UHGV virus genome: UHGV-0346409
DNA length: 44,226 nt
Source: a virus
Direction: 5' to 3' (one strand)
Shown in pieces: positions 94 through 29,655 of the stretch. The notes under the pieces are model-generated. The model had not been told where the DNA came from and did not search any database. It saw only the letters and a program-made list of their open reading frames with translations. A program made the translations under genes and the position numbers. Position 1 is the stretch's first letter; every line of letters begins with the position of its first letter.

Positions 94-183
94 GGAGAGA
101 TGCCGGAGCGGCTGAACGGACCGGTCTCGAAAACCGGAGTAGGGGCAACTCTACCGGGGGTTCAAATCCCCCTCTCTCCGCCA
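94..183 (+). tRNA. serU: tRNA-Ser, anticodon CGA (90 nt, long variable arm, encoded CCA)
   Basis: Cloverleaf readable by eye: acceptor GGAGAGA / TCTCTCC-G-CCA, anticodon loop CT-CGA-AA, T-arm GGGGG-TTCAAAT-CCCCC. Matches my recollection of enterobacterial serU. Confidence 0.9.
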
Positions 184-1904: not shown

Positions 1905-2473
1905 TAGCGTACCCTCAGCGAACGTTCGCCGCGTTCCAGATGTGCGCCTGGTACCGGGTTTAATAACTCGGCTGGTGGTGTTTCTCCACGCGCCAGTATT
2001 TCGGCGGCAACCGCCTCCGCAGATTCAATCACTTCTTTAATGGCTCGCTTGTTTGGTGTAATAACCGTTTCTACATCAACAAGTGACACGCCTTCATACT
2101 CATCCGGGATCTTATCTTTGCTATCGATAATTACCCGGATAGCCCCCTGTGCATCAGTAAATGTGTTTTTTGCGGTTTTTAGTTTATCCAGGCCAGCAGC
2201 TTGCAGGCAGGCGAGCATATGCTTCCGAATTGCTTTTTCCTTGCCTTCAAAGGACGTCTTACGGGTAGCCAGGCGAGACATTTCTTCAGCGCAGGTACTG
2301 GCATTGCCCTGTAAATTGCGGCAGATGACCATCATGGCGTCCAGTTTGTCTCCCAGTTCTCCTTCCATACCTTCAAGTGTGTCGGCGATCATCTCTGGCG
2401 TCAGTTCGTCGGAGGTTTCCAGCAGGTCAATCAGGCTGGCGTATTCTTTTGCAATAGCGATAGCGGTGCTCAT
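1904..2473 (-). CDS. Siphovirus Gp157-family protein
   Basis: 189 aa. The N-terminal E..L..LL...TLEGMEGE pattern and the C-terminal VPGAHLERGERSLRVR match the Gp157 family as I recall it. Confidence 0.8.
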   Translation of the reverse strand: MSTAIAIAKEYASLIDLLETSDELTPEMIADTLEGMEGELGDKLDAMMVICRNLQGNASTCAEEMSRLATRKTSFEGKEKAIRKHMLACLQAAGLDKLKTAKNTFTDAQGAIRVIIDSKDKIPDEYEGVSLVDVETVITPNKRAIKEVIESAEAVAAEILARGETPPAELLNPVPGAHLERGERSLRVR

Positions 2474-4692
2474 GCTGTTTGCTCCTGTGCGGCGGCGAGA
2501 GCGGCGAGGCGTTCGGTTTTGATTTCATTCAAACGGCGCAGGCGCGAACCAAGATAAGTTGAATACTCCTTATCACCTTTGGATTCTGCGGCTTTGCGGT
2601 GAACTTCTACTTCCCGCGCAATAAGGCCATAGACTTTATTAACTTCATTGGGGGTTACGGCTGCAGCCAGTGTTTTGGCAACACCTGAGAGTCGTTCATC
2701 CAGTTCTTCACGCAGTCGGGTAGCATCCTCTGCTTTCTCGCTTGCCTTCTTAATACCGTATTCTGTATTCAGCTCGGCGGTGTAGGCACTATCGTTATGC
2801 ATATCCATATAAACATCTGCCGCAAATCCCAGATGAGATAGTGCTTTGACGGTGGCATCAGTAAGAGACTTTTTGGAGGCCTCTTTTTCCATTACCAGTG
2901 CCCCTTTGTTATTTTTTGATATGTAATCCGTGTGGCCATATGACGGAATAAATCCTTTCACTCCGTTCCAGACGTACCAGAGATCTATCCGGATGGTGTG
3001 TACTGACAGGCAGAACAGGGAGCCGTCAGCATCCCTGACAGGTTTTTGTCCAATAATTTTCCCTGTCTGATCCTGTATAGGTTCAAGTAATGGCACACCG
3101 CGATCCACTCGCTCCTCCTTGATTTCAACTCCCCAACCAATGCCTTCCATTCCCAGCACTTCAGTCGCACGCATCAAAATATATTGTGCGCGTATGGAGT
3201 GCAGTCCTGCACCGTAATCATTATGTGTGACATACGCAGGATCGGTCCGCTGAACGCGATTCCAGATAGCCAAATTTGCTTTGCTCTGGTCATCATTCAT
3301 TGCTGACAGATAATGCTCCATGCGAATTGATGCAGTTTTTTCCTCGGTATGGATCCGCTCAACCAGAGCGTCAACGTTCTGCACCAGGTCTTTTACCTGC
3401 TCGCTAAGTTTTTCTTGTGGAGGAGTCTCTTCTTCCAGGATAACAGTTACAGATTCCCGCTGTGATACGGCGTTATTTTCTGGTACGCCATACACATGGC
3501 GGGGCGTGACAAACTGCTCACGCAACTGCTGCAAACTACGCTCTCCAGCATTTGCTGCTTCGCTTTTTTCGCCCTGATTTGAGGGGGGTTCTGACATCAT
3601 CCCATCGATTGAGAATCGCCCGCCGCCGTGGTTGGTGACTTTTACATCACCCTTTGGTGCTGCGTCCTTTGGCTTCTCTTCAACAGCATTTGCATCACGC
3701 TGCCCGTTAGCTTGCAGCCAGTTGTCGATGTGACTGCGCAGGGATTGCGGGAAATGGTACGTGTCTTTTGCGGGGGCACTCTGAACGACACCGAATACGG
3801 ATGCCCGGTCATAGGAAAGGATCTGATCCGTTGTGCGCAAGGCCATTGACCAGCGTTTAAAATCCTCCCGATCCTGGCTGATTATTTCGTCTGCCGCTTT
3901 CAGGACGCTGGGGGTGATTTTTTCCGGGCCAACGGGTAACAGAGCGCAGGCAATTTCACGATCCAGTGTAGCGTGAGTCTGTTTGTAAGGACGTGCGGAT
4001 GCTGTTTCTGGTTTTACCTCCGGCAGCATTTCATCGCGTTTACCGGGATTCTCTACCCATTTTTTTATAAATTTGGAGATAGTCCAACTGGTCGGGTTTT
4101 GTTCCTGGGTATCGCAACTTGCCAAAATTGCATGTACCAGATTATTCAATCCAGCAATATGCATGTACTCGATGGGCTTACACGCCACCATGGCATCAAG
4201 AACGATGCGGTTAAACGCGTCAACCTCATCCTCACTGTCAGTATCACTGTTGTCGAGCATCTCCAGGTATTCACGCGTCTGCGCAAGCAATTCACTGTTG
4301 ACTTCGTTGGCGTCGTGGCTGAACAGCAGAACGGCGGCGAATCGTTCACGAGCCGGCAGTTTCATCAGGTCGTTAACCTGTGCGATATCTGCTGAACCGC
4401 TATCTACAACGGGGGTGTTAACTACCCATTTTTCGCCATCAAAACTGTGTTCTGTGGCGAACGTCTCATCAAACTCACCAACGCCTGGGCGCGGTTGGCC
4501 CGGGGCATCTTCCCAGATTTTAGGTTTGAAATAGTTGTCGCCGTGGTCAGGGTAGGCTTCCCACAATTTGCCGATGATGATGTTCTCGGCAACTTTTTTG
4601 TTAGGGGCGTCGATGGCGATGGCCAGCGCCGGGATCGCGCCGTTTTTGAGCGCGCCTTTTTTCGCTTCTAACAAGCCGTTAAAAATGGTCAT
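2470..4692 (-). CDS. Large recombination-module protein; C-terminal Rad52/Sak-like single-strand-annealing domain, N-terminal two-thirds unassigned
   Basis: 740-aa ORF. The C-terminal segment ...IRAQYILMRATEVLGMEGIGWG...KKSLTDATVKALSHLGFAADVYM resembles the Rad52/Sak fold signature. ATGA overlap with the Gp157 gene. Confidence 0.6.
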   Translation of the reverse strand: MTIFNGLLEAKKGALKNGAIPALAIAIDAPNKKVAENIIIGKLWEAYPDHGDNYFKPKIWEDAPGQPRPGVGEFDETFATEHSFDGEKWVVNTPVVDSGSADIAQVNDLMKLPARERFAAVLLFSHDANEVNSELLAQTREYLEMLDNSDTDSEDEVDAFNRIVLDAMVACKPIEYMHIAGLNNLVHAILASCDTQEQNPTSWTISKFIKKWVENPGKRDEMLPEVKPETASARPYKQTHATLDREIACALLPVGPEKITPSVLKAADEIISQDREDFKRWSMALRTTDQILSYDRASVFGVVQSAPAKDTYHFPQSLRSHIDNWLQANGQRDANAVEEKPKDAAPKGDVKVTNHGGGRFSIDGMMSEPPSNQGEKSEAANAGERSLQQLREQFVTPRHVYGVPENNAVSQRESVTVILEEETPPQEKLSEQVKDLVQNVDALVERIHTEEKTASIRMEHYLSAMNDDQSKANLAIWNRVQRTDPAYVTHNDYGAGLHSIRAQYILMRATEVLGMEGIGWGVEIKEERVDRGVPLLEPIQDQTGKIIGQKPVRDADGSLFCLSVHTIRIDLWYVWNGVKGFIPSYGHTDYISKNNKGALVMEKEASKKSLTDATVKALSHLGFAADVYMDMHNDSAYTAELNTEYGIKKASEKAEDATRLREELDERLSGVAKTLAAAVTPNEVNKVYGLIAREVEVHRKAAESKGDKEYSTYLGSRLRRLNEIKTERLAALAAAQEQTA

Positions 4693-4722
4693 TGGTCTTT
4701 CCTCATTACAGGTCAGTGGTTT

Positions 4723-5043
4723 TTAGTAGGGGAGCTCATCGGTATCTGGCGTGTATTCGATGCAAAGTAACTGCTGGATTTTGTCATCGATAGCAGCAAT
4801 ACGCTGTTGAGCGTCGGCGGCTGTATTCTGTTTTTGCTCACGCAGCTGCTCGACCTGCAAACCGATGATGTCGATTGGCTGGGGCTGGTTGACGGTAATT
4901 TCAATTTCGCGGCTTTCCAGAAGGATGTACCTGTCTGGAAAATTTTTTGACATATCAACCGTCGCAATAAACAGCTTTTCATGGCTGAAAGTTGAAGTTG
5001 CATAATGAATAAAGAGTGTTACTGGGATGGTGCGCGCTTCCAT
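4723..5043 (-). CDS. Hypothetical early protein with coiled-coil-like C-terminus
   Basis: 106-aa ORF with AGGAG 6 nt upstream of the ATG. The overlapping 96-aa ORF (4713..5003) looks like a shadow frame. Confidence 0.55.
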   Translation of the reverse strand: MEARTIPVTLFIHYATSTFSHEKLFIATVDMSKNFPDRYILLESREIEITVNQPQPIDIIGLQVEQLREQKQNTAADAQQRIAAIDDKIQQLLCIEYTPDTDELPY

Positions 5044-5127
5044 AGCGACTCCTTGGTGATGTATACTCGGGACCGATCAGCGAATATTGATCAGCTTCCA
5101 TAGCGTCAGTGTCGTTGGTCTTTCCTC

Positions 5128-5151
5128 ATCACAAGTTTGGTCACTTGTGAT
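5128..5151. repeat. Perfect 9-bp inverted repeat ATCACAAGT-N6-ACTTGTGAT
   Basis: Read directly. It sits just beside a degenerate GAGGAAAGACC cassette. Confidence 0.6.
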
Positions 5152-5186
5152 AAATCCGAATGGTTTGGTCGCCGTTCGGGGTAACT

Positions 5187-5209
5187 GGCCCGCCTTGTGC
5201 GGGTCTTTT
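5187..5209 (+). terminator. Intrinsic-terminator-like hairpin oriented on the plus strand (antisense to the early-left leader)
   Basis: GGCCCGC-CTTGT-GCGGGTC followed by TTTTG on the plus strand. The minus-strand reading has no U tract. Confidence 0.4.
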
Positions 5210-5415
5210 GCTATCTAAAGGGTGCCGGTTACGTTTCCGGCGTCGTTATGTTTCCATCACGACCGTACGGGGCTGGTCTTTCCTGTTTTGAGCTGGTCAG
5301 GCTCATGGTCAACGCTGGTCAGGCGTGGTACTTCCTCCGGTCTTTCCCTGGTGTCACGCTGCGGGTTTGGCCTCTCCTGTTGGGGACTCAGGCACAGCGA
5401 TAAAACCTGGCTGTG

Positions 5416-5445
5416 TGAAAAAATGGCCCATCGTGCGGACTGGGC
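5416..5445 (-). terminator. Intrinsic terminator inside the early-left leader
   Basis: Minus strand reads GCCCAGTC-CGCAC-GATGGGC followed by CATTTTTTC. Confidence 0.55.
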
Positions 5446-5477
5446 AAAGACTAAACACAGCAAATTGATGATGGGCG

Positions 5478-5517
5478 CCCGGAATCGAACCGGGTAACGG
5501 GCAGGGAGTTCCCGTTA
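5478..5517 (-). ncRNA. Two abutting hairpins: 7-bp stem with 9-nt loop, then a tRNA T-arm-like CCCGG-TTCGATT-CCGGG
   Basis: Minus strand reads TAACGGG-AACTCCCTG-CCCGTTA followed directly by CCCGG-TTCGATT-CCGGG. No full cloverleaf can be drawn. Confidence 0.45.
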
Positions 5518-5891
5518 AACACCTGTTCACCACAACCGGGAGCGCACTCCGCCATTTCAAAATTTAACGACAAAGCTCAAAGTTGAGTCGATGAAGTGCG
5601 CTCTCGTGTTGTAGCCAGGACTCTTCCCTGGTGGTCACACCGTATCGCCTTGATGGTGAATCAATCGCTCATACCTGGCTGTGGCTTGCACATTCCGGCT
5701 ACCTGCTATGGAGACAACGCGTTAAGGCTCCGCTTCCATCCAGACCGCTTCGACACATGTGCCATATGCCGGCGAAGTCTTTCCCTCTGTCATCGTGTTG
5801 GCGCCGACGCGCAAAATTTGATGCCGTCTTTCCGGCTGTCAGAACGTGTTTCTGAACAACTGCCGCTGGGTAAGCGTTGTTGATGAAAGTG

Positions 5892-5920
5892 ACTTTACAA
5901 TTTGTATTTGTAATGGTCAA
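5892..5920 (-). promoter_or_regulatory. Candidate PL promoter with embedded operator (OL)
   Basis: Minus strand reads TTGACC-17 nt-TAAAGT. The 17-bp operator TACAATTTGTATTTGTA (5896..5912) sits between -35 and -10 and matches the OR operator consensus TACAA-N7-TTGTA. Confidence 0.55.
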
Positions 5921-6039
5921 CGTATTTTTAAAAAATAATTTGTAGTTAGGGGCAAAAAAATATTCACTGTGTAAAGGTGTTTTTGTGTTAGGGGGAAAGT
6001 TGCATGCCAGCAGCGGCTGGCCTGAAAATTTGAACTGAA

Positions 6040-6453
6040 CTATTTTGTCTGGTTTTTGGCTTCAAGTAGTTCTTTTAGCAGTAGATCGAAGTGCTCTCTT
6101 TTTTCTTTTAGCTCATTGATTAATTTATTTTTTTCGCTCTCAGGCAGTCCTCTGAATAGTTGCAGTAGAGCCTGTTCTTGCGGGGTTAGTTCTTGATTGT
6201 AATTACCCGGGTGTAGCGTGGATTCATCCAAATATTCCCCTTCATTCATGAAGAAAAAATGAACAGGGTATCCGGTCACTTTTGCTAGCTTGTCTAATTT
6301 ATCTTTTCTTGGAGTTACCCCATTACACCATGCCTGAACTGATTGAGCCGTAACCCCAATATGGCGAGCTAACTCAGATTGAGACCAGCCTAAGTCTTTT
6401 AGAATCCGTTGTAGTCGGCTAGCAAAAGCCATGTTTTTCGTTTTTGTGTTCAT
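6040..6453 (-). CDS. cI-like HTH_XRE prophage repressor, short form without S24/LexA-type peptidase domain
   Basis: HTH segment SQSELARHIGVTAQSVQAWCNG. Divergent from the cro-like gene. The ORF track begins at a TTG (6468); I prefer the ATG at 6453. The C-terminus is a short helical tail. Confidence 0.8.
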   Translation of the reverse strand: MNTKTKNMAFASRLQRILKDLGWSQSELARHIGVTAQSVQAWCNGVTPRKDKLDKLAKVTGYPVHFFFMNEGEYLDESTLHPGNYNQELTPQEQALLQLFRGLPESEKNKLINELKEKREHFDLLLKELLEAKNQTK

Positions 6454-6463
6454 ACCGTAAGGA

Positions 6464-6524
6464 TACAAGGTTTAATTGTAGGGATCATTGCAAATATAAT
6501 TTGTAATTACAGTTATGATTTGTA
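6464..6524. promoter_or_regulatory. OR region: three 17-bp operators (6464..6480, 6489..6505, 6508..6524) overlapping divergent PR and PRM candidates
   Basis: TACAAGGTTTAATTGTA, TGCAAATATAATTTGTA and TACAGTTATGATTTGTA. On the plus strand, TATAAT at 6495..6500 (PR -10). On the minus strand, TACAAT at 6480..6475 (PRM -10). Confidence 0.6.
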
Positions 6525-6551
6525 ATGATGGCGCGGACACAAGGAGTCCAT

Positions 6552-6782
6552 ATGGATAAACAACTGCAAGACAAAATTCTTTCCGTAATGAGTCAATCCG
6601 AGTTAGGGCGGCGATTAGGGAAAAAACCACAAACGGTAAGCCTCTGGTTCAAAGGAAGGGTTCCCGGTGAAGAGGTTTTGCGCACATCTGAAGCTCTTGA
6701 ATGGCGCGTGACCCCCCATGATCTTAGACCGGATCTTTACCCAAACCCAGATGACAGCTTGCCTAAAACGAAAGCAGCTTAA
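6552..6782 (+). CDS. Cro/YdaS-like small HTH regulator
   Basis: AAGGAG lies 6 nt upstream of the ATG at 6552. The sequence SQSELGRRLGKKPQTVSLWFKG...VTPHDLRPDLYP resembles the YdaS family. Confidence 0.75.
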   Translation: MDKQLQDKILSVMSQSELGRRLGKKPQTVSLWFKGRVPGEEVLRTSEALEWRVTPHDLRPDLYPNPDDSLPKTKAA

Positions 6783-6840
6783 CTGTTGGTGAGCCCCAAA
6801 TCTGATTAAGCGTAATCAATTTTTAGCGACAGGAGACGCT

Positions 6841-7317
6841 ATGGAAAACCAAGAGGAATTACAAAAAGAGATTTTGACCTGGGCGGCAAGGGCAGGGCAG
6901 GAACTCGTCACGATTGAAATCTGCCGGGCCTAGTTCAGTCAGGGACGCAATGATGAGTTGAGACTACATGAATTTGAGGACGCGGACGGCAATGTGGACT
7001 GGAGAGCCATCAACAACAATCGGCAGAAAATCTTTCGCTGGTTACGTGGCGAGACAACGGCGGCGCGCCGAAAAACTCAGGTGCTGGCCAGTGTGATGAA
7101 AGCCGTGCTACCCGCAGAACGGCGGGCACGTCTGGAGTCGCCGGGCGATCCCGTTTTGCTGGCAACGCTGGCGGCAAAAGAAGGGGTGGAAGCGATTAAC
7201 GCTGTACATCTCCACTTCGCGCCAGAGTTAACTATCCAGGAAATTGACGAAGCAATAGCGGCGCTGGTAGCGACGCGAGGAGCAGTGATACGCACTGCGC
7301 AAGACCACCATGCATGA
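6841..7317 (+). pseudogene. ydaT/CII-like regulator interrupted by an in-frame amber (TAG 6931..6933)
   Basis: ATG 6841 has a strong AGGAG RBS and 30 codons run up to the TAG. The same frame continues into ORF 6958..7317. KIFRWLRGET and VLPAERRARL match my recollection of Rac YdaT. Confidence 0.7.
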
Positions 7318-7356
7318 GCGCCTGACCAGCGTTTAACTTATACCGAGGAAAGACCG

Positions 7357-11375: not shown

Positions 11376-11412
11376 GCAGCCGCAAAATCGGTTGCCGGGA
11401 TTTGCACCCCGG
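11376..11412 (+). promoter_or_regulatory. Two abutting hairpins upstream of the terminator (GCAGCCG-CAAAAT-CGGTTGC, then CCGGG-loop-CCCGG)
   Basis: Read directly. The geometry resembles the pair at 5478..5517. Confidence 0.4.
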
Positions 11413-11431
11413 ATATCTAAAAGGCGACAAC

Positions 11432-11451
11432 GACGCGCCAGCGTCTTTTTT
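11432..11451 (+). terminator. Intrinsic terminator closing the replication/nin operon
   Basis: GACGC-GCCA-GCGTC followed by TTTTTT. Confidence 0.65.
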
Positions 11452-11611
11452 ATTGTCGTGCGCACAGCCACATCCGCGATTTATGGTGGGGCGTGTAGGG
11501 GAGTCGAAAGGCTCGCCGGGTCCTTTTAGCCGGTAGTGCAAACCCTGCATGTCTCACCACCCAAAGATTTGCACCTGAGGGGGGTGATTATCCGACTAAA
11601 AGGAAATCGCT

Positions 11612-28016: not shown

Positions 28017-29326
28017 TGCCGTGGAACAATTTTCCGCACCTCGCCGCTAGGGCGTTCAATCAACCGCTTTTGCTGGAGCCCGCCTACGCGCGGGTATTTT
28101 TTTCTGCGCTGAGCGACCGGTTCGGTACCGGGCGACTGATTGATACAGCGTCAGGAGAGGTAATGAACAGCGACGAAATGAACGCGCTCGCGATGGGGTG
28201 GGACAGCAGCGAGCGAACACGCCAGAAATCGTATCGCGTGGAGCGTGGTATAGCCGTTCTGCCGGTTACCGGGACGCTGGTTCATAAATTGGGTTATATC
28301 AATCCGGTCAGCGGGATGAGTGGTTACGACGGAATCGCAAAACGCCTGCAGCAGGCGATTTCTGATCCCGATGTTAAGGGGATCCTGCTGGATATTGATT
28401 CCCCTGGCGGTGAGGTCGCCGGCGCGTTTGATACCGCTGATTTAATCGCCCGGGCGCGAGAGCAAAAACCGGTGTGGGCGCTGGCCAGCGATACGGCCTG
28501 CAGCGCCGCATATTTGCTGGCGTCAGCGTGTTCGCGCCGGCTGATAACGCAGACCGGCACGGTTGGTTCAATCGGTGTCCTGATGGCTCACCGCTGCGTC
28601 GAAAAGGCGCTGGAGATTGCCGGCGTTGACGTGACGCTGATTTACGCCGGCGCGCACAAAGTCGACGGGAACCCGTATTCCCAGCTGCCCGACGACGTTC
28701 GCGACGAATTCCAGCTGAGTATTAACAGCACACGCGAGCAGTTCGCGCAAAAAGTCTCGGATTATACCGGGCTGAAAAAATCCAGGGTGCTGGCCACAGA
28801 GGCCGCAGTATTTATCGGCGCGGACGCGATTAAATCTGGTCTCGCTGATCAACTCGTTAATTACGCGGACGCTATCGCAGTGATGGCCGACGCACTGAAA
28901 CCAAAAACGGAGCGATTTATGCCAGGTACAACAGAAACCACGGCGGAGACCACGACCACAGAACAAACCGCGGCTACGACTACGGTCGCGCCGGTTGAGT
29001 CCAACGCGGAGCAGATTCGCGCGGACGCCGCATCGAGCGAACTGGCACGCGTGATGGCCATCATCAACTGTCCCGAAGCTGTTGGGCGCGAGGCGCAGGC
29101 AAAAGCGCTCGCTGCCGTCCCCGGGATGACGGTCGGGCAGGCGCAGGCTGTCCTCGCGGCAGCACCGCAAACAGCGCAGGCGCGGACAGAAACGGCGCTC
29201 GATACACTCATGAGCACTGAATCACCGGAAACTATTCAGGATGCCGGCAGCACCACGGCAACAGGAACAACCGCAAACGTCTCGATGCTGGTCGCGGCAG
29301 GGCGTTCAATTTTAGGGGATGAATAA
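28016..29326 (+). CDS. Head maturation protease / scaffold, S49 (SppA/ClpP-like), lambda gpC-like
   Basis: GILLDIDSPGGEVAG and ACSAAYLLASAC motifs. Ala/Thr-rich C-terminal scaffold-like region. Confidence 0.85.
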   Translation: MPWNNFPHLAARAFNQPLLLEPAYARVFFSALSDRFGTGRLIDTASGEVMNSDEMNALAMGWDSSERTRQKSYRVERGIAVLPVTGTLVHKLGYINPVSGMSGYDGIAKRLQQAISDPDVKGILLDIDSPGGEVAGAFDTADLIARAREQKPVWALASDTACSAAYLLASACSRRLITQTGTVGSIGVLMAHRCVEKALEIAGVDVTLIYAGAHKVDGNPYSQLPDDVRDEFQLSINSTREQFAQKVSDYTGLKKSRVLATEAAVFIGADAIKSGLADQLVNYADAIAVMADALKPKTERFMPGTTETTAETTTTEQTAATTTVAPVESNAEQIRADAASSELARVMAIINCPEAVGREAQAKALAAVPGMTVGQAQAVLAAAPQTAQARTETALDTLMSTESPETIQDAGSTTATGTTANVSMLVAAGRSILGDE

Positions 29327-29655
29327 TGACCACAGAAACGTATAGCCCGGATGATTTTATTCTGGGACCCGATCTTGTTGTGACGACCGTCGGTCATTTT
29401 CAGGGCGGGATCAACGTACCCCGGCTGACACCGATTATGCTCGACGCTACTGCCGGGACGTTTAAAGTCTGGGACGGCTCAATTGGTAAGGCGGTTGGTC
29501 TCACAGCCACAGCAGTTAATACAGGCTCCAGTTCTGCAGACTGCTCGTACTACAAATCAGGATCGTTTCGTTATACGGCGATTAACTGGGGTACGGTTAC
29601 TGACGTCGCTAAACGCAAATCAGCGTTTGCTGGTACGCCAGTCAGCGTTGGCTGA
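29326..29655 (+). CDS. Head decoration protein, lambda gpD-like
   Basis: LTPIMLDATAGTFKVWDG...YYKSGSFRY...KRKSAFAGTPVSVG parallels lambda gpD. Confidence 0.85.
   Translation: MTTETYSPDDFILGPDLVVTTVGHFQGGINVPRLTPIMLDATAGTFKVWDGSIGKAVGLTATAVNTGSSSADCSYYKSGSFRYTAINWGTVTDVAKRKSAFAGTPVSVG

What the first reader, a model, noticed from the sequence alone, without database searches (positions are those of the whole stretch)
5044..5885. About 840 nt of ORF-free, hairpin-dense RNA where an early-left antiterminator gene would normally sit
A good sigma70-like promoter on the minus strand (TTGACC-17-TAAAGT, 5920..5892) has an embedded operator. It points into about 840 nt that hold only short, mutually overlapping ORFs with junk-like composition in all six frames. 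The first credible early-left gene starts only at 5043.

Structures on the predicted minus-strand RNA:
- two 5' hairpins (about 5874..5840);
- an 11-bp long-range helix pairing 5540..5550 with 5593..5603, in which one position is a G.U pair only on the minus-strand transcript (C/A mismatch on the other strand);
- two abutting hairpins, one a tRNA T-arm look-alike (CCCGG-TTCGATT-CCGGG);
- an intrinsic terminator at 5445..5416;
- five exact copies of GGAAAGAC.

No N-like gene is visible anywhere in the prophage, yet the recombination genes lie beyond this terminator.

Possible readings:
- a cis-acting antitermination RNA, comparable in concept to HK022 put;
- a large phage ncRNA or decoy with a tRNA-like module;
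- a graveyard of eroded genes.
Basis: partly seen in the sequence, partly recalled or inferred. Interest (0 to 1): 0.8.

Follow-up and report, generated by a model that had tools for sequence, protein, structure and literature searches.

The report
Modular structured RNA leader, prophage PL
The 840-base gene-free stretch after this E. coli prophage's early-left promoter is a conserved patchwork of folded RNA modules, including a common, apparently undescribed phage RNA, a decayed tRNA and a copy of the 3' half of the host regulatory RNA RprA, and it is neither junk nor a relative of the known HK022 antiterminator RNA.

Summary
The region is under selection as RNA. It is 75.6% identical to a diverged relative whose flanking genes are only 45-58% identical, most of its indels are not multiples of three, and substitutions show no codon-position bias.

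It consists of modules:
- A leader scaffold shared by about 47 phage leaders. It has two 5' hairpins, hairpins with covarying stems and an invariant GGAAAGAC loop, and an sRNA-plus-terminator module homologous to the 3' half of host RprA.
- An inserted cassette. 'Core A' (5771..5540) is a roughly 230-nt pseudoknotted RNA with strong covariation. It occurs in 36% of complete E. coli genomes, is never annotated and has no Rfam match. A decayed tRNA follows, which is the T-arm look-alike.

There is no sequence similarity to HK022 put, and no N-like gene was found.

Most likely function: an attenuating leader that yields processed small RNAs when PL fires, with read-through needed to reach the exonuclease operon. 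The partner of the GGAAAGAC loops and the function of core A remain unknown. The part nearest gene 1 may encode an antisense anti-RBS sRNA.

The parts
5892..5920 (-). PL-type promoter (-35 at 5920-5915, -10 at 5897-5892) with an embedded operator TTACAA-N7-TTGTAA (5895-5915). The inferred transcription start is about 5885.
   Evidence: The conserved leader block begins exactly at CATCAAC (5885) in 33 leaders whose promoters differ.
5840..5881 (-). Two 5'-terminal hairpins: I at 5881-5855 and II at 5854-5840. This is the most conserved part of the leader family.
   Evidence: The block is 88% identical to BUCT708. The stem varies only through A-U to G.U changes.
5823..5836 (-). GGAAAGAC-loop hairpin 1, preceded by UGACA.
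   Evidence: The class has covarying stems: 4 of 4 variable pairs covary, with 88.7% of cells paired against 39% or less in slid controls.
5774..5792 (-). GGAAAGAC-loop hairpin 2 (UGACA + GAG / GGAAAGAC / UUC). In minimal leaders the Rfam RprA model aligns this hairpin with RprA stem-loop 2.
5540..5771 (-). Core A, a roughly 230-nt structured RNA. Elements: H1 5771-5751; a variable hairpin whose base is CUG/CAG; the invariant GUAGCCGGAAUGUGCAAG at 5702-5685; an H-type pseudoknot (5664-5661/5653-5650 and 5658-5655/5641-5638); H6 5631-5615; and a closing helix 5603-5593/5550-5540.
   Evidence: No Rfam match. Found in 1970 of 5426 E. coli genomes.
5466..5536 (-). Decayed tRNA or tRNA-like element. 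It runs from the GUUGUGG junction through an anticodon-arm-like hairpin (5516-5496) to a perfect T-arm (5494-5478).
   Evidence: not called as a tRNA; tRNA-Sec model, 19 bits; same position and same GTTGTGG junction as the real tRNA-Arg(UCU) in SPN1S and KPC3phi13.3.
5414..5463 (-). RprA 3'-half homologue: UUGCUGUGUUUAGUCUUUGCCC, a terminator hairpin at 5445-5426 and a U-tract at 5423-5418. GCUGUGU (5461-5455) can pair with ACACAGC (5416-5410) in read-through RNA.
   Evidence: 84% identity over 50 nt to the annotated rprA in 5424 of 5426 genomes; more than 120 viral contigs with covarying terminator stems.
5290..5413 (-). Highly conserved post-terminator block (82-90% identical to BUCT708). 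It contains GGAAAGAC copy 3 (5347-5340) and the CUGACCAGC repeats.
5276..5283 (-). GGAAAGAC copy 4, with no flanking stem.
5118..5125 (-). GGAAAGAC copy 5 in the RBS-type context GAUGAGGAAAGACCAACG, with ACG in place of a start codon (a pseudo-RBS).
   Evidence: Real RBS copies of the same motif sit at 1514 and 4695 (minus strand) and at 7347 and 10065 (plus strand).
5128..5179 (.). Two hairpins with covarying stems and GACCAA-type loops (5179-5156 and 5151-5128). The strand is uncertain.
5072..5214 (+). Candidate antisense sRNA. It has four clean hairpins, single-stranded UUUCCUC (an anti-RBS sequence), and an intrinsic terminator at 5187-5205 followed by a U-tract. No promoter was found.
   Evidence: terminator; z = -7.05; antisense more stable in 29 of 29 leaders; most of that difference is compositional; z = -6.1 against -5.2. 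The A-run before the hairpin is conserved in all leaders.

Best explanation
The segment is a selected, untranslated early-left leader RNA assembled from separable RNA modules.

Shown:
(a) A leader scaffold is shared by a family of lambdoid phages with YdaS/YdaT-type immunity regions. It has two 5' hairpins, then two hairpins displaying GGAAAGAC, then an sRNA-like module homologous to the 3' part of host RprA that ends in an intrinsic terminator, then further GGAAAGAC and GACCAA hairpins before the first gene.
(b) In this prophage a mobile ncRNA cassette sits inside that scaffold. It consists of core A, its closing helix and a decayed tRNA. Elsewhere the same cassette heads phage tRNA or moron units, or forms a stand-alone gene of about 470 nt with its own promoter and terminator.

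Inferred:
When the repressor leaves the operator, PL first makes an RNA of about 470 nt that mostly stops at the RprA-type terminator. tRNA-type and RNase E-type processing at the tRNA-like junction would release a stable core A RNA and a 3' small RNA of about 55-60 nt with an RprA-type 3' scaffold, presumed to bind Hfq. Only read-through transcripts reach the 106-aa gene and the exonuclease operon, so the leader works as an attenuator coupled to sRNA production. Nearest analogues are StxS from PR'-tR' and DicF in the dicB operon. The repeated GGAAAGAC loops copy the phage's own RBS motif (GAGGAAAGACCAAUG). They are most likely binding sites for one trans-acting factor, an RNA or a protein, that links leader read-through to translation of the early genes.
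For: RNA-level selection:
- The leader is 75.6% identical to BUCT708, against 45%, 58% and 56.5% for the repressor, gene 1 and the exonuclease.
- It has 20 indels, most not multiples of three.
- Mismatches by codon position are 64/70/54, against 266/226/420 in the exonuclease.

Core A:
- 12 of 25 pairs change on both sides. 95.7% of cells are paired, against 28-50% in slid controls, and 0 of 500 shuffles reach the observed value.
- Many G.U pairs, and folding asymmetry in 25 of 27 copies, place the RNA on the PL strand.
- The closing helix is present with covarying ends in 55 of 55 copies that carry the tail motif.
- Good promoters end 7-8 nt before H1 in independent contexts.
- A tRNA-Arg(UCU) or a GTTGTGG junction follows in 96 of 126 copies.

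RprA homology.

Family architecture and minimal leaders without the cassette.

GGAAAGAC hairpins.

Promoter, operator and terminator. PL is the only promoter-like site found upstream of gene 1.

Analogues in the literature: StxS (PMC7547250, read).
Against: - There are no expression data. The transcription start, termination efficiency, processing sites and Hfq binding are all inferred.
- The window's terminator stem has only 5 clean pairs, and CA separates it from the U-tract, so it may be leaky or weak.
- The RprA model scores 37 bits against a gathering score of 70. The canonical RprA seed (AUCCCCUGA) is absent here, so any targets are unknown.
- The cassette splits the RprA-like hairpin from its 3' module by about 300 nt compared with minimal leaders.
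- Complementarity between the GGAAAGAC loops and the RprA-like GUCUUUGCC is only 6-8 bp and is not maintained in GUCUUGGCC variants.
- No protein partner was identified.
Confidence: 0.55

Rival explanations
1. A cis-acting processive antiterminator RNA, put-like in concept. The two 5' hairpins, or core A, would bind the transcribing RNA polymerase and carry it through the RprA-type terminator and any Rho sites. This would replace the missing N protein.
For: - No N-like ORF was found.
- The 5' hairpins start at +1 and are the most conserved part of 33 leaders that otherwise have different promoters.
- Core A is also the 5' end of its transcripts elsewhere. It sits in the PL-leader position of an unrelated prophage, O26:H11 11368, between ymfK and yfdP.
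- A long untranslated leader needs protection from Rho. The RNA after the terminator is richer in C than in G.
- put is also about 70 nt, has two stem-loops and lies just after PL (PMC9378689).
Against: - No sequence similarity to the HK022 PL-putL-nun interval.
- No second copy downstream of PR, whereas HK022 has putR.
- Stand-alone core A cassettes end at an intrinsic terminator, and some are followed by an rrn-type boxA (TGCTCTTTAACAA). Neither fits a core A that already makes RNA polymerase terminator-resistant.
- The hairpins are short (6 bp and 5-6 bp), unlike the long put stems.
Confidence: 0.15
2. An RNA-based immunity or translation-control circuit of the P4 CI or P1 C4 type. The gene-1-proximal part (about 5072..5214) would encode a plus-strand antisense sRNA. 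Its single-stranded (GG)UCUUUCCUC would pair with the GAGGAAAGACC ribosome-binding sites of early genes and with the GGAAAGAC loops of the nascent leader.
For: - A plus-strand intrinsic terminator lies at 5187..5205. Its stem covaries, and the A-run before it, which is the U-tract on the plus strand, is conserved in all leaders and reaches T6-T7 in minimal leaders.
- The plus-strand RNA folds into four clean hairpins (z = -7.05, MFE frequency 0.18) with UUUCCUC unpaired.
- The antisense strand is more stable in 29 of 29 leaders. Where the strands differ, the sense strand carries C.A mismatches.
- The same motif of 11-17 nt is the RBS of at least four genes on both operons.
- The prophage already uses one C4-type antisense RNA elsewhere.
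Against: - No promoter-like site was found on the plus strand. The best candidate, the conserved TATACT, has a 2-of-6 match at -35.
- Most of the strand difference is compositional: z = -6.1 against -5.2 after shuffling.
- This does not explain core A or the RprA-like module.
Confidence: 0.3
3. Decayed coding DNA, a graveyard of eroded early genes with no function as RNA.
For: - GGAAAGAC is also the RBS motif of the phage. Copy 5 looks like an intercistronic junction with ACG in place of ATG, and some relatives have ATG there.
- The tRNA-like piece really is a decayed gene.
- A 16-nt stretch of 5' hairpin I is identical to part of the HK022 cII-like ORF.
Against: - The leader is more conserved than the flanking genes, has non-3n indels and shows no codon-position bias.
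- The small ORFs change frame between relatives.
- Extensive compensatory covariation is present.
- 448 E. coli genomes carry the region nearly full length.
Confidence: 0.03
4. lambda-type nut sites. The GGAAAGAC hairpins (a 5-bp stem with a GAAAGA loop) would be boxB analogues bound by an unrecognised phage or host antitermination protein.
For: - The hairpin has a covarying stem, an invariant purine-rich loop and a conserved 5' flank, UGACA.
- lambda boxB loops are GAAAA and GAAGA (my own knowledge).
- In some phages the N-like protein is encoded away from PL, for example mEp021 Gp17 (PMC11893012).
Against: - No arginine-rich ORF was found.
- There is no boxA-like CGCUCUUA next to the hairpins.
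- The hairpin class occurs only in the PL leader. The PR operon has only RBS-type copies.
Confidence: 0.12

Closest known systems
StxS (sRNA made by early termination of the PR' transcript of Stx phages; PMC7547250)
   Same: A phage promoter is followed by an ORF-free leader and an intrinsic terminator. The terminated leader would be processed into an Hfq-type sRNA that imitates host sRNAs (StxS uses the same rpoS seed as RprA, DsrA and ArcZ). Read-through is needed for the downstream genes.
   Different: StxS comes from the constitutive late promoter and is read through by Q. Here the promoter is repressor-controlled PL, no antiterminator is known, the leader is 470-840 nt and carries extra modules, and the similarity to RprA lies in the 3' scaffold, not the rpoS seed.
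RprA (Rfam RF00034, host sRNA between ydiK and ydiL)
   Same: The 3' roughly 50 nt, including the terminator loop sequence CACGAUGGGC, are 84% identical. In minimal leaders the upstream hairpin and AACGAAU also align.
   Different: It scores 37-38 bits against a gathering score of 70. It has no RprA stem-loop 1 and no AUCCCCUGA seed in this window. It lies in a prophage leader and lacks its own Rcs-controlled promoter.
DicF in the dicB operon of prophage Qin
   Same: An sRNA embedded in a repressor-controlled prophage early operon. It would be released by termination and processing, with protein genes downstream (my own knowledge).
   Different: There is no sequence relation, and DicF is preceded by small ORFs instead of a long structured leader.
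HK022 putL/putR antiterminator RNA (PMC9378689)
   Same: A lambdoid phage without N, with structured RNA starting right after PL.
   Different: No sequence similarity, no PR copy, and much shorter stems. The bulk of the 840 nt consists of other modules.
P4 CI RNA and P1/P7 C4 RNA immunity systems
   Same: A short motif is repeated in a leader and is complementary to a small RNA encoded in the same region. tRNA-like processing is used to release the RNA (my own knowledge).
   Different: Complementarity on the same strand is only 6-8 nt here. The better-matched RNA would be an unproven antisense transcript.
AgvB/AsxR prophage anti-sRNAs (PMC4104026)
   Same: A family built as a variable 5' part plus a conserved 3' terminator scaffold, carried by lambdoid prophages.
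   Different: The conserved 3' sequence differs (GUAUCUCAUGCUAUUGCCCGAACCC...), so this is a separate family built on the RprA scaffold.
Stable RNAs inside phage tRNA clusters (T4 species 1 and 2 RNAs)
   Same: Core A is co-transcribed with, and abuts, phage tRNA genes, so tRNA-processing enzymes could define its ends (my own knowledge).
   Different: There is no sequence relation, the hosts and phage types differ, and the function of those T4 RNAs is likewise unknown.

Membership tests
RprA (RF00034) | Covariance-model score at or above the curated gathering score (70 bits). | tested here: not met
   37.4 bits for window 5416..5526. 38.4 bits on the minimal leader L155. No hit at gathering threshold.
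RprA (RF00034) | Conserved 3' region UUGCUGUGUGUAGUCUUUGCCC plus a Rho-independent terminator. | tested here: met
   Alignment with K-12 rprA. BLAST gives 84% identity over 50 nt to the annotated rprA in 5424 of 5426 genomes.
RprA (RF00034) | Seed hairpin that pairs with rpoS (GGAAAUCCCCUGA). | tested here: not met
   Absent from the window. Some other phage copies do carry AUCCCCUGA.
RprA (RF00034) | Hfq binding and RNase E processing to a short 3' form. | not testable with these tools
   Requires CLIP, northern or in vitro assays. The property is described in PMC6202311.
HK022 put RNA | Sequence similarity to putL/putR. | tested here: not met
   blastn-short of the whole leader against HK022 finds nothing in 28070..28420. 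A direct alignment shows no similarity.
HK022 put RNA | Located immediately downstream of PL. | tested here: met
   The 5' hairpins begin at the inferred +1.
HK022 put RNA | A second copy downstream of PR. | tested here: not met
   The 5'-hairpin motif occurs once in the 13-kb locus L001, which covers the PR operon. Core A occurs once.
HK022 put RNA | Factor-independent antitermination through the RNA polymerase beta' zinc-binding domain. | not testable with these tools
   Requires in vitro transcription or rpoC mutants.
lambda-type nut site (boxA/boxB with N) | boxB-like hairpin with a conserved purine-rich loop and a covarying stem. | tested here: met
   5-bp stem with a GAAAGA loop. 4 of 4 variable pairs covary.
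lambda-type nut site (boxA/boxB with N) | An arginine-rich N-like protein encoded by the phage. | tested here: not met
   A six-frame scan for arginine-rich windows found no plausible ORF.
lambda-type nut site (boxA/boxB with N) | boxA (CGCUCUUA-like) next to boxB, and a nutR counterpart. | tested here: not met
   The flank is UGACA. Hairpin-type copies occur only in the PL leader.
tRNA | Recognised as a tRNA by ARAGORN or the Rfam tRNA model. | tested here: not met
   Only tRNA-Ser at 94..183 was called. The tRNA-Sec model gives 19 bits against a gathering score of 47.
tRNA | Canonical T-arm, and a position homologous to real phage tRNA genes. | tested here: met
   CCCGG-UUCGAUU-CCGGG at 5494..5478. 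It has the same GTTGTGG junction and spacing as tRNA-Arg(UCU) in SPN1S and KPC3phi13.3.
Any Rfam 15 family (for core A) | A match to a curated covariance model. | tested here: not met
   Nothing overlaps the conserved core or closing helix (5771..5540) at E up to 10. The only overlaps are chance-level hits: Zeta-pan 5737..5838 (17.5 bits, E 2.7), and IRES_IGF2 (18.9 bits) and tRNA-Sec (19.3 bits) at its 3' edge. There are no gathering-level hits in six related loci. The invariant 18-mer is absent from the searchable literature.
Leader-terminated phage sRNA (StxS type) | Promoter, ORF-free leader and intrinsic terminator ahead of the operon. | tested here: met
Leader-terminated phage sRNA (StxS type) | A stable processed sRNA accumulates and acts in trans. 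| not testable with these tools
   Requires RNA-seq, northern blots or target assays.

The most novel reading that the evidence does not exclude
Core A, with its closing helix and tRNA-like punctuation, is a previously undescribed class of large pseudoknotted phage RNA. It is carried by lambdoid, epsilon15-like, Lastavirus and P1-like phages of Enterobacterales, and by about a third of complete E. coli genomes. It is released as a stable RNA from the 5' end of early or moron transcripts and acts on a conserved host component, for example the transcription, translation or RNA-processing machinery, or a defence system. Together with a second new family, phage sRNAs built on the RprA 3' scaffold, it would make PL leaders of N-less prophages ncRNA operons.
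Probability: 0.45. Interest if true: 0.85.

Novelty: new variant of a known kind. Interest (0 to 1): 0.72.

Why it matters
First, a structured RNA of about 230 nt is present in about 36% of complete E. coli genomes. These include O104:H4, O26:H11 and ST131 strains, P1-like plasmids, and Salmonella, Klebsiella and Enterobacter phages. It is unannotated and matches no Rfam family. It is an immediately testable candidate for a new functional RNA class in the best-studied bacterium.

Second, phages have copied the 3' scaffold of the host sRNA RprA and attached many different 5' parts to it. Some carry the rpoS-pairing AUCCCCUGA, and others carry the GcvB target motif CACAACA. This extends the 'anti-sRNA / sRNA mimic' idea beyond AgvB, AsxR and StxS.

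Third, it gives a concrete system for asking how N-less lambdoid prophages pass an early terminator, and what a repeated RBS-mimicking hairpin does in a leader.

Tried and rejected
- Rfam at gathering and at E up to 10 gave nothing for core A and only a sub-threshold RprA hit.
- ARAGORN does not call the T-arm region as a tRNA.
- Full-text searches for the invariant core A 18-mer and for the RprA-like 20-mer found no phage paper. Keyword searches found no description either.
- I tested whether the RprA-like module is the conserved 3' part of AgvB/AsxR. It is not.
- HK022 was fetched and compared. The only notable match, 16 nt, falls inside its cII-like ORF and not in put.
- Core A as a riboswitch was rejected because the downstream genes are heterogeneous: tRNAs, a DnaB-like helicase, a DUF2829-like protein and many spurious ORFs.
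- The GGAAAGAC hairpin as an anti-terminator pairing with GUCUUUGCC was considered. The match is only 8 of 9 with a mismatch, it weakens in GUCUUGGCC variants, and it is separated by 300 nt in this window. It was not adopted.
- Small ORFs in minimal leaders (a 24-aa ORF and an 88-aa ORF) change frame or lose the ATG between relatives.
- The raw MFE advantage of the antisense strand near gene 1 turned out to be largely compositional once shuffles were used.
- No covariance model was built. Sequence conservation was high enough for pattern and BLAST retrieval, and only in-session DNA could have been searched with it.
Full report
**Setting**

The window is a lambdoid prophage of E. coli integrated next to tRNA-Ser(CGA) (94..183). 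It matches strain RM9387 and others at 100% identity. 481 of 5426 complete E. coli genomes hold the queried 951 nt, and 448 hold it nearly full length.

A 142-aa HTH repressor lies at 6040..6468 on the minus strand. A YdaS-type Cro lies at 6525..6782 on the plus strand. Downstream of the finding lie a 106-aa protein of unknown function (phrog_2479, 4723..5043) and a 740-aa exonuclease (phrog_2489, 2470..4692).

The only sigma70-like site in 4500..7000 is TTGACC-17-TAAAGT at 5920..5892 on the minus strand. Its spacer carries TTACAA-N7-TTGTAA, which recurs in the repressor-cro intergenic region, so it is an operator-controlled PL.

No credible ORF exists between 5885 and 5044, and RefSeq annotates none. 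The two 5' hairpins, the 11-bp helix (5603..5593 with 5550..5540, one G.U pair valid only on the minus-strand RNA), the two abutting hairpins including CCCGG-UUCGAUU-CCGGG, and the terminator are all present. So are five GGAAAGAC copies, against 0.016 expected.

**It is selected as RNA**

A colinear relative, the record called Stenotrophomonas phage BUCT708, is 75.6% identical across the leader. It is only 45%, 58% and 56.5% identical in the repressor, gene 1 and the exonuclease.

The leader alignment has 20 indels, most not multiples of three. Mismatches are even over codon positions (64/70/54), whereas the exonuclease shows the usual third-position excess (266/226/420). Small ORFs in related leaders shift frame or lose their start codon. 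This rejects the 'graveyard' reading.

**Module 1, core A (5771..5540)**

BLAST against phage records showed that 5771..5600 is shared at about 74% identity with unannotated DNA of unrelated phages. These include the epsilon15-like phages SPN1S, PAT1 and Tyrion, the Lastavirus SopranoGao, Klebsiella prophages and the P1-like phages D6 and SJ46.

The invariant 18-mer GTAGCCGGAATGTGCAAG occurs in more than 120 IMG/VR contigs, giving 103 unique copies. It also occurs in at least a dozen genera of Enterobacterales. A consensus query finds the element in 1970 of 5426 complete E. coli genomes, up to four copies per genome and 202 of them on plasmids. It is never annotated.

On 28 diverse copies a hand-derived structure is strongly supported. 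It has a 5' hairpin, a variable hairpin with a covarying base, an H-type pseudoknot and a GAAGAG-loop hairpin. 12 of 25 pairs change on both sides. 95.7% of cells are paired, against 28-50% when partners are slid. No shuffle out of 500 reaches the observed values.

Frequent G.U pairs, and greater stability of the sense strand in 25 of 27 copies, place the RNA on the PL strand.

The 3' tail of core A (GAGCGCACUUC) pairs with GGAGUGCGCUC 45-105 nt downstream. A 10-12 bp equivalent with covarying ends (CC:GG, UA:UA, AC:GU, GG:CC, UU:AA) is present in all 55 copies that have the tail motif.

No Rfam 15 family matches core A. At E up to 10, only chance-level hits (under 20 bits) touch its edges or a short internal stretch. 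The 18-mer appears in no searchable paper.

**Module 2, a decayed tRNA (5536..5466)**

In SPN1S, KPC3phi13.3 and others the closing helix is followed by ...GUUGU|GG and a genuine tRNA-Arg(UCU). In P1-like phages a tRNA-Met(CAU) precedes core A.

The window has the same GUUGUGG junction, an anticodon-arm-like hairpin and a perfect T-arm. However, no tRNA finder calls it. 96 of 126 unique core A copies have the junction.

In several independent contexts a good promoter ends 7-8 nt before the first base of core A, for example TTGACA-N18-TACATT. Core A is therefore the 5' end of a primary transcript. Complete stand-alone cassettes of about 470 nt exist, ordered promoter, core A, tRNA-like element, sRNA-like element, terminator. 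That is the same length as PL to the terminator here.

The genes downstream of core A are heterogeneous, so it is not a riboswitch for one pathway.

**Module 3, an RprA-type sRNA end (5463..5414)**

The Rfam RprA model gives 37.4 bits, against a gathering score of 70. Alignment with K-12 rprA shows near identity over the last 50 nt or so, including the terminator loop. BLAST hits the annotated rprA in 5424 of 5426 genomes at 84% identity.

The pattern TTGCTGTGTNTAGTCTTNGCC occurs in more than 120 viral contigs, with many different upstream sequences and covarying terminator stems. This is a phage family built on the RprA 3' scaffold. It is distinct from AgvB/AsxR, whose conserved part differs.

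**The scaffold**

Forty-seven distinct leaders share the same order of elements:
- 5' hairpins
- GGAAAGAC hairpin 1
- GGAAAGAC hairpin 2
- an optional core A cassette
- the RprA-like terminator
- further GGAAAGAC copies

In minimal leaders the RprA-like RNA follows hairpin 2 directly. The RprA model then aligns that hairpin with RprA stem-loop 2 (38.4 bits). The cassette in this window is therefore an insertion into an RprA-like leader RNA.

GGAAAGAC occurs in two contexts:
- The loop of a hairpin preceded by UGACA. Its stem covaries at all four variable pairs, with 88.7% of cells paired against 39% or less in slid controls.
- The RBS GAGGAAAGACCAAUG of early genes on both operons.

Two further covarying hairpins (5179..5156 and 5151..5128) display GACCAA, the other half of that RBS motif.

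**How it most likely works**

What follows is inference. When PL is derepressed, it produces an RNA of about 470 nt that largely ends at the RprA-type terminator. The tRNA-like junction would serve as a processing signal. It would release core A and a 3' sRNA of about 55-60 nt. Read-through RNA carries the remaining hairpins and reaches gene 1 and the exonuclease.

The closest described systems are StxS (PMC7547250) and DicF (my own knowledge). The GGAAAGAC and GACCAA loops look like RBS mimics that share a binding partner with the real ribosome-binding sites.

One candidate partner is a plus-strand RNA from about 5072 to 5214. It folds into four clean hairpins (z = -7.05) with UUUCCUC unpaired, and it ends in a conserved intrinsic terminator. 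However, no promoter was found, and the strand preference is mostly compositional.

**Comparison with put and nut**

HK022 shows no similarity in its PL-putL interval. The leader's 5' motif and core A each occur only once in the 13-kb locus that includes the PR operon. Core A cassettes end at terminators or are followed by an rrn-type boxA. A put-like role is therefore unsupported for core A and untested for the 5' hairpins.

The GGAAAGAC hairpin resembles boxB. However, there is no N-like ORF, no boxA and no PR-side copy.

**Verdict**

The region is an ordinary kind of thing, a regulatory phage leader that produces small RNAs, built from unusual and apparently undescribed parts. The main open questions are the function of core A, the partner of the repeated loops, and whether an antisense sRNA exists.

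Noticed in passing
window 11376..11451 and 11479..11564 (+): Rfam gathering-level hits to isrK (76 bits) and the C4 antisense RNA (74 bits), side by side. This resembles a P1/P7 immI or Gifsy anti-Q control region inside the same prophage.
   Followed up: no
window 5072..5214 (+): Candidate antisense sRNA. It has four hairpins, unpaired UUUCCUC complementary to the phage RBS motif, and an intrinsic terminator at 5187..5205. The terminator's U-tract is conserved in all related leaders. No promoter was found.
   Followed up: partly
loci L131, L133, L135 and others (IMG/VR): The commonest phage copy of the RprA-type scaffold is preceded by CCACAACAAAAUCA, which contains the GcvB R1 target consensus CACAACA. 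It could be a GcvB decoy analogous to AgvB but built on a different scaffold.
   Followed up: no
loci L134, L137, L160, L167, L171, L194, L202 and others: Other copies sit right after a stop codon and carry AUCCCCUGA, the RprA segment that pairs with rpoS. These would be 3'-UTR-type RprA mimics in phages.
   Followed up: no
loci L087, L031, L044, just downstream of core A: A hairpin followed by TGCTCTTTAACAA, an exact match to the rrn-operon boxA as I recall it. It suggests host rrn-type antitermination is used on these untranslated phage transcripts.
   Followed up: no
window 5879..5864 and HK022 (L129) 29637..29652: A 16-of-16-nt identity (CAACGCTTACCCAGCG) between 5' hairpin I and the helix-turn-helix region of the HK022 cII-like ORF (E = 0.007). 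It is either chance or a trace of a coding origin for the leader's 5' end.
   Followed up: partly
window 5996..6031 (-): A hairpin (GCCAGC-CGCU-GCUGGC) follows the repressor stop codon with almost no U-tract. The repressor gene has the same orientation as PL, so read-through from the maintenance promoter could transcribe the leader in lysogens.
   Followed up: no
window 5322..5292 (-): CUGACCAGC occurs twice and UGACCA once more within 30 nt. The post-terminator RNA is richer in C than in G (C/G up to 1.6), while core A is G-rich (C/G 0.64-0.86). This may be a Rho loading region.
   Followed up: partly
L002 (OM816834, 'Stenotrophomonas phage vB_SmeS_BUCT708'): This phage is colinear with an E. 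coli/Klebsiella-type prophage across the immunity and early-left region, so the host label looks doubtful. Several MAGs labelled Bacteroides, Oscillospiraceae, Bacillota and Dysgonamonadaceae also carry the enterobacterial core A 18-mer, which probably reflects binning contamination.
   Followed up: no
L075 and about 440 E. coli genomes, compared with window 5283..5270: The common E. coli variant (97.3% identical, 966 nt against 951 nt) has a 15-nt insertion (GACCAGCCCGGGCCT) next to GGAAAGAC copy 4, which adds a further UGACCAGCC repeat.
   Followed up: no
L256 (E. coli O26:H11 11368, 3650.9 kb): Core A lies between the LexA-family repressor ymfK and yfdP-yfdQ-yfdR in an e14/CPS-53-type prophage. 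The same PL-leader position therefore occurs in an unrelated immunity region.
   Followed up: partly
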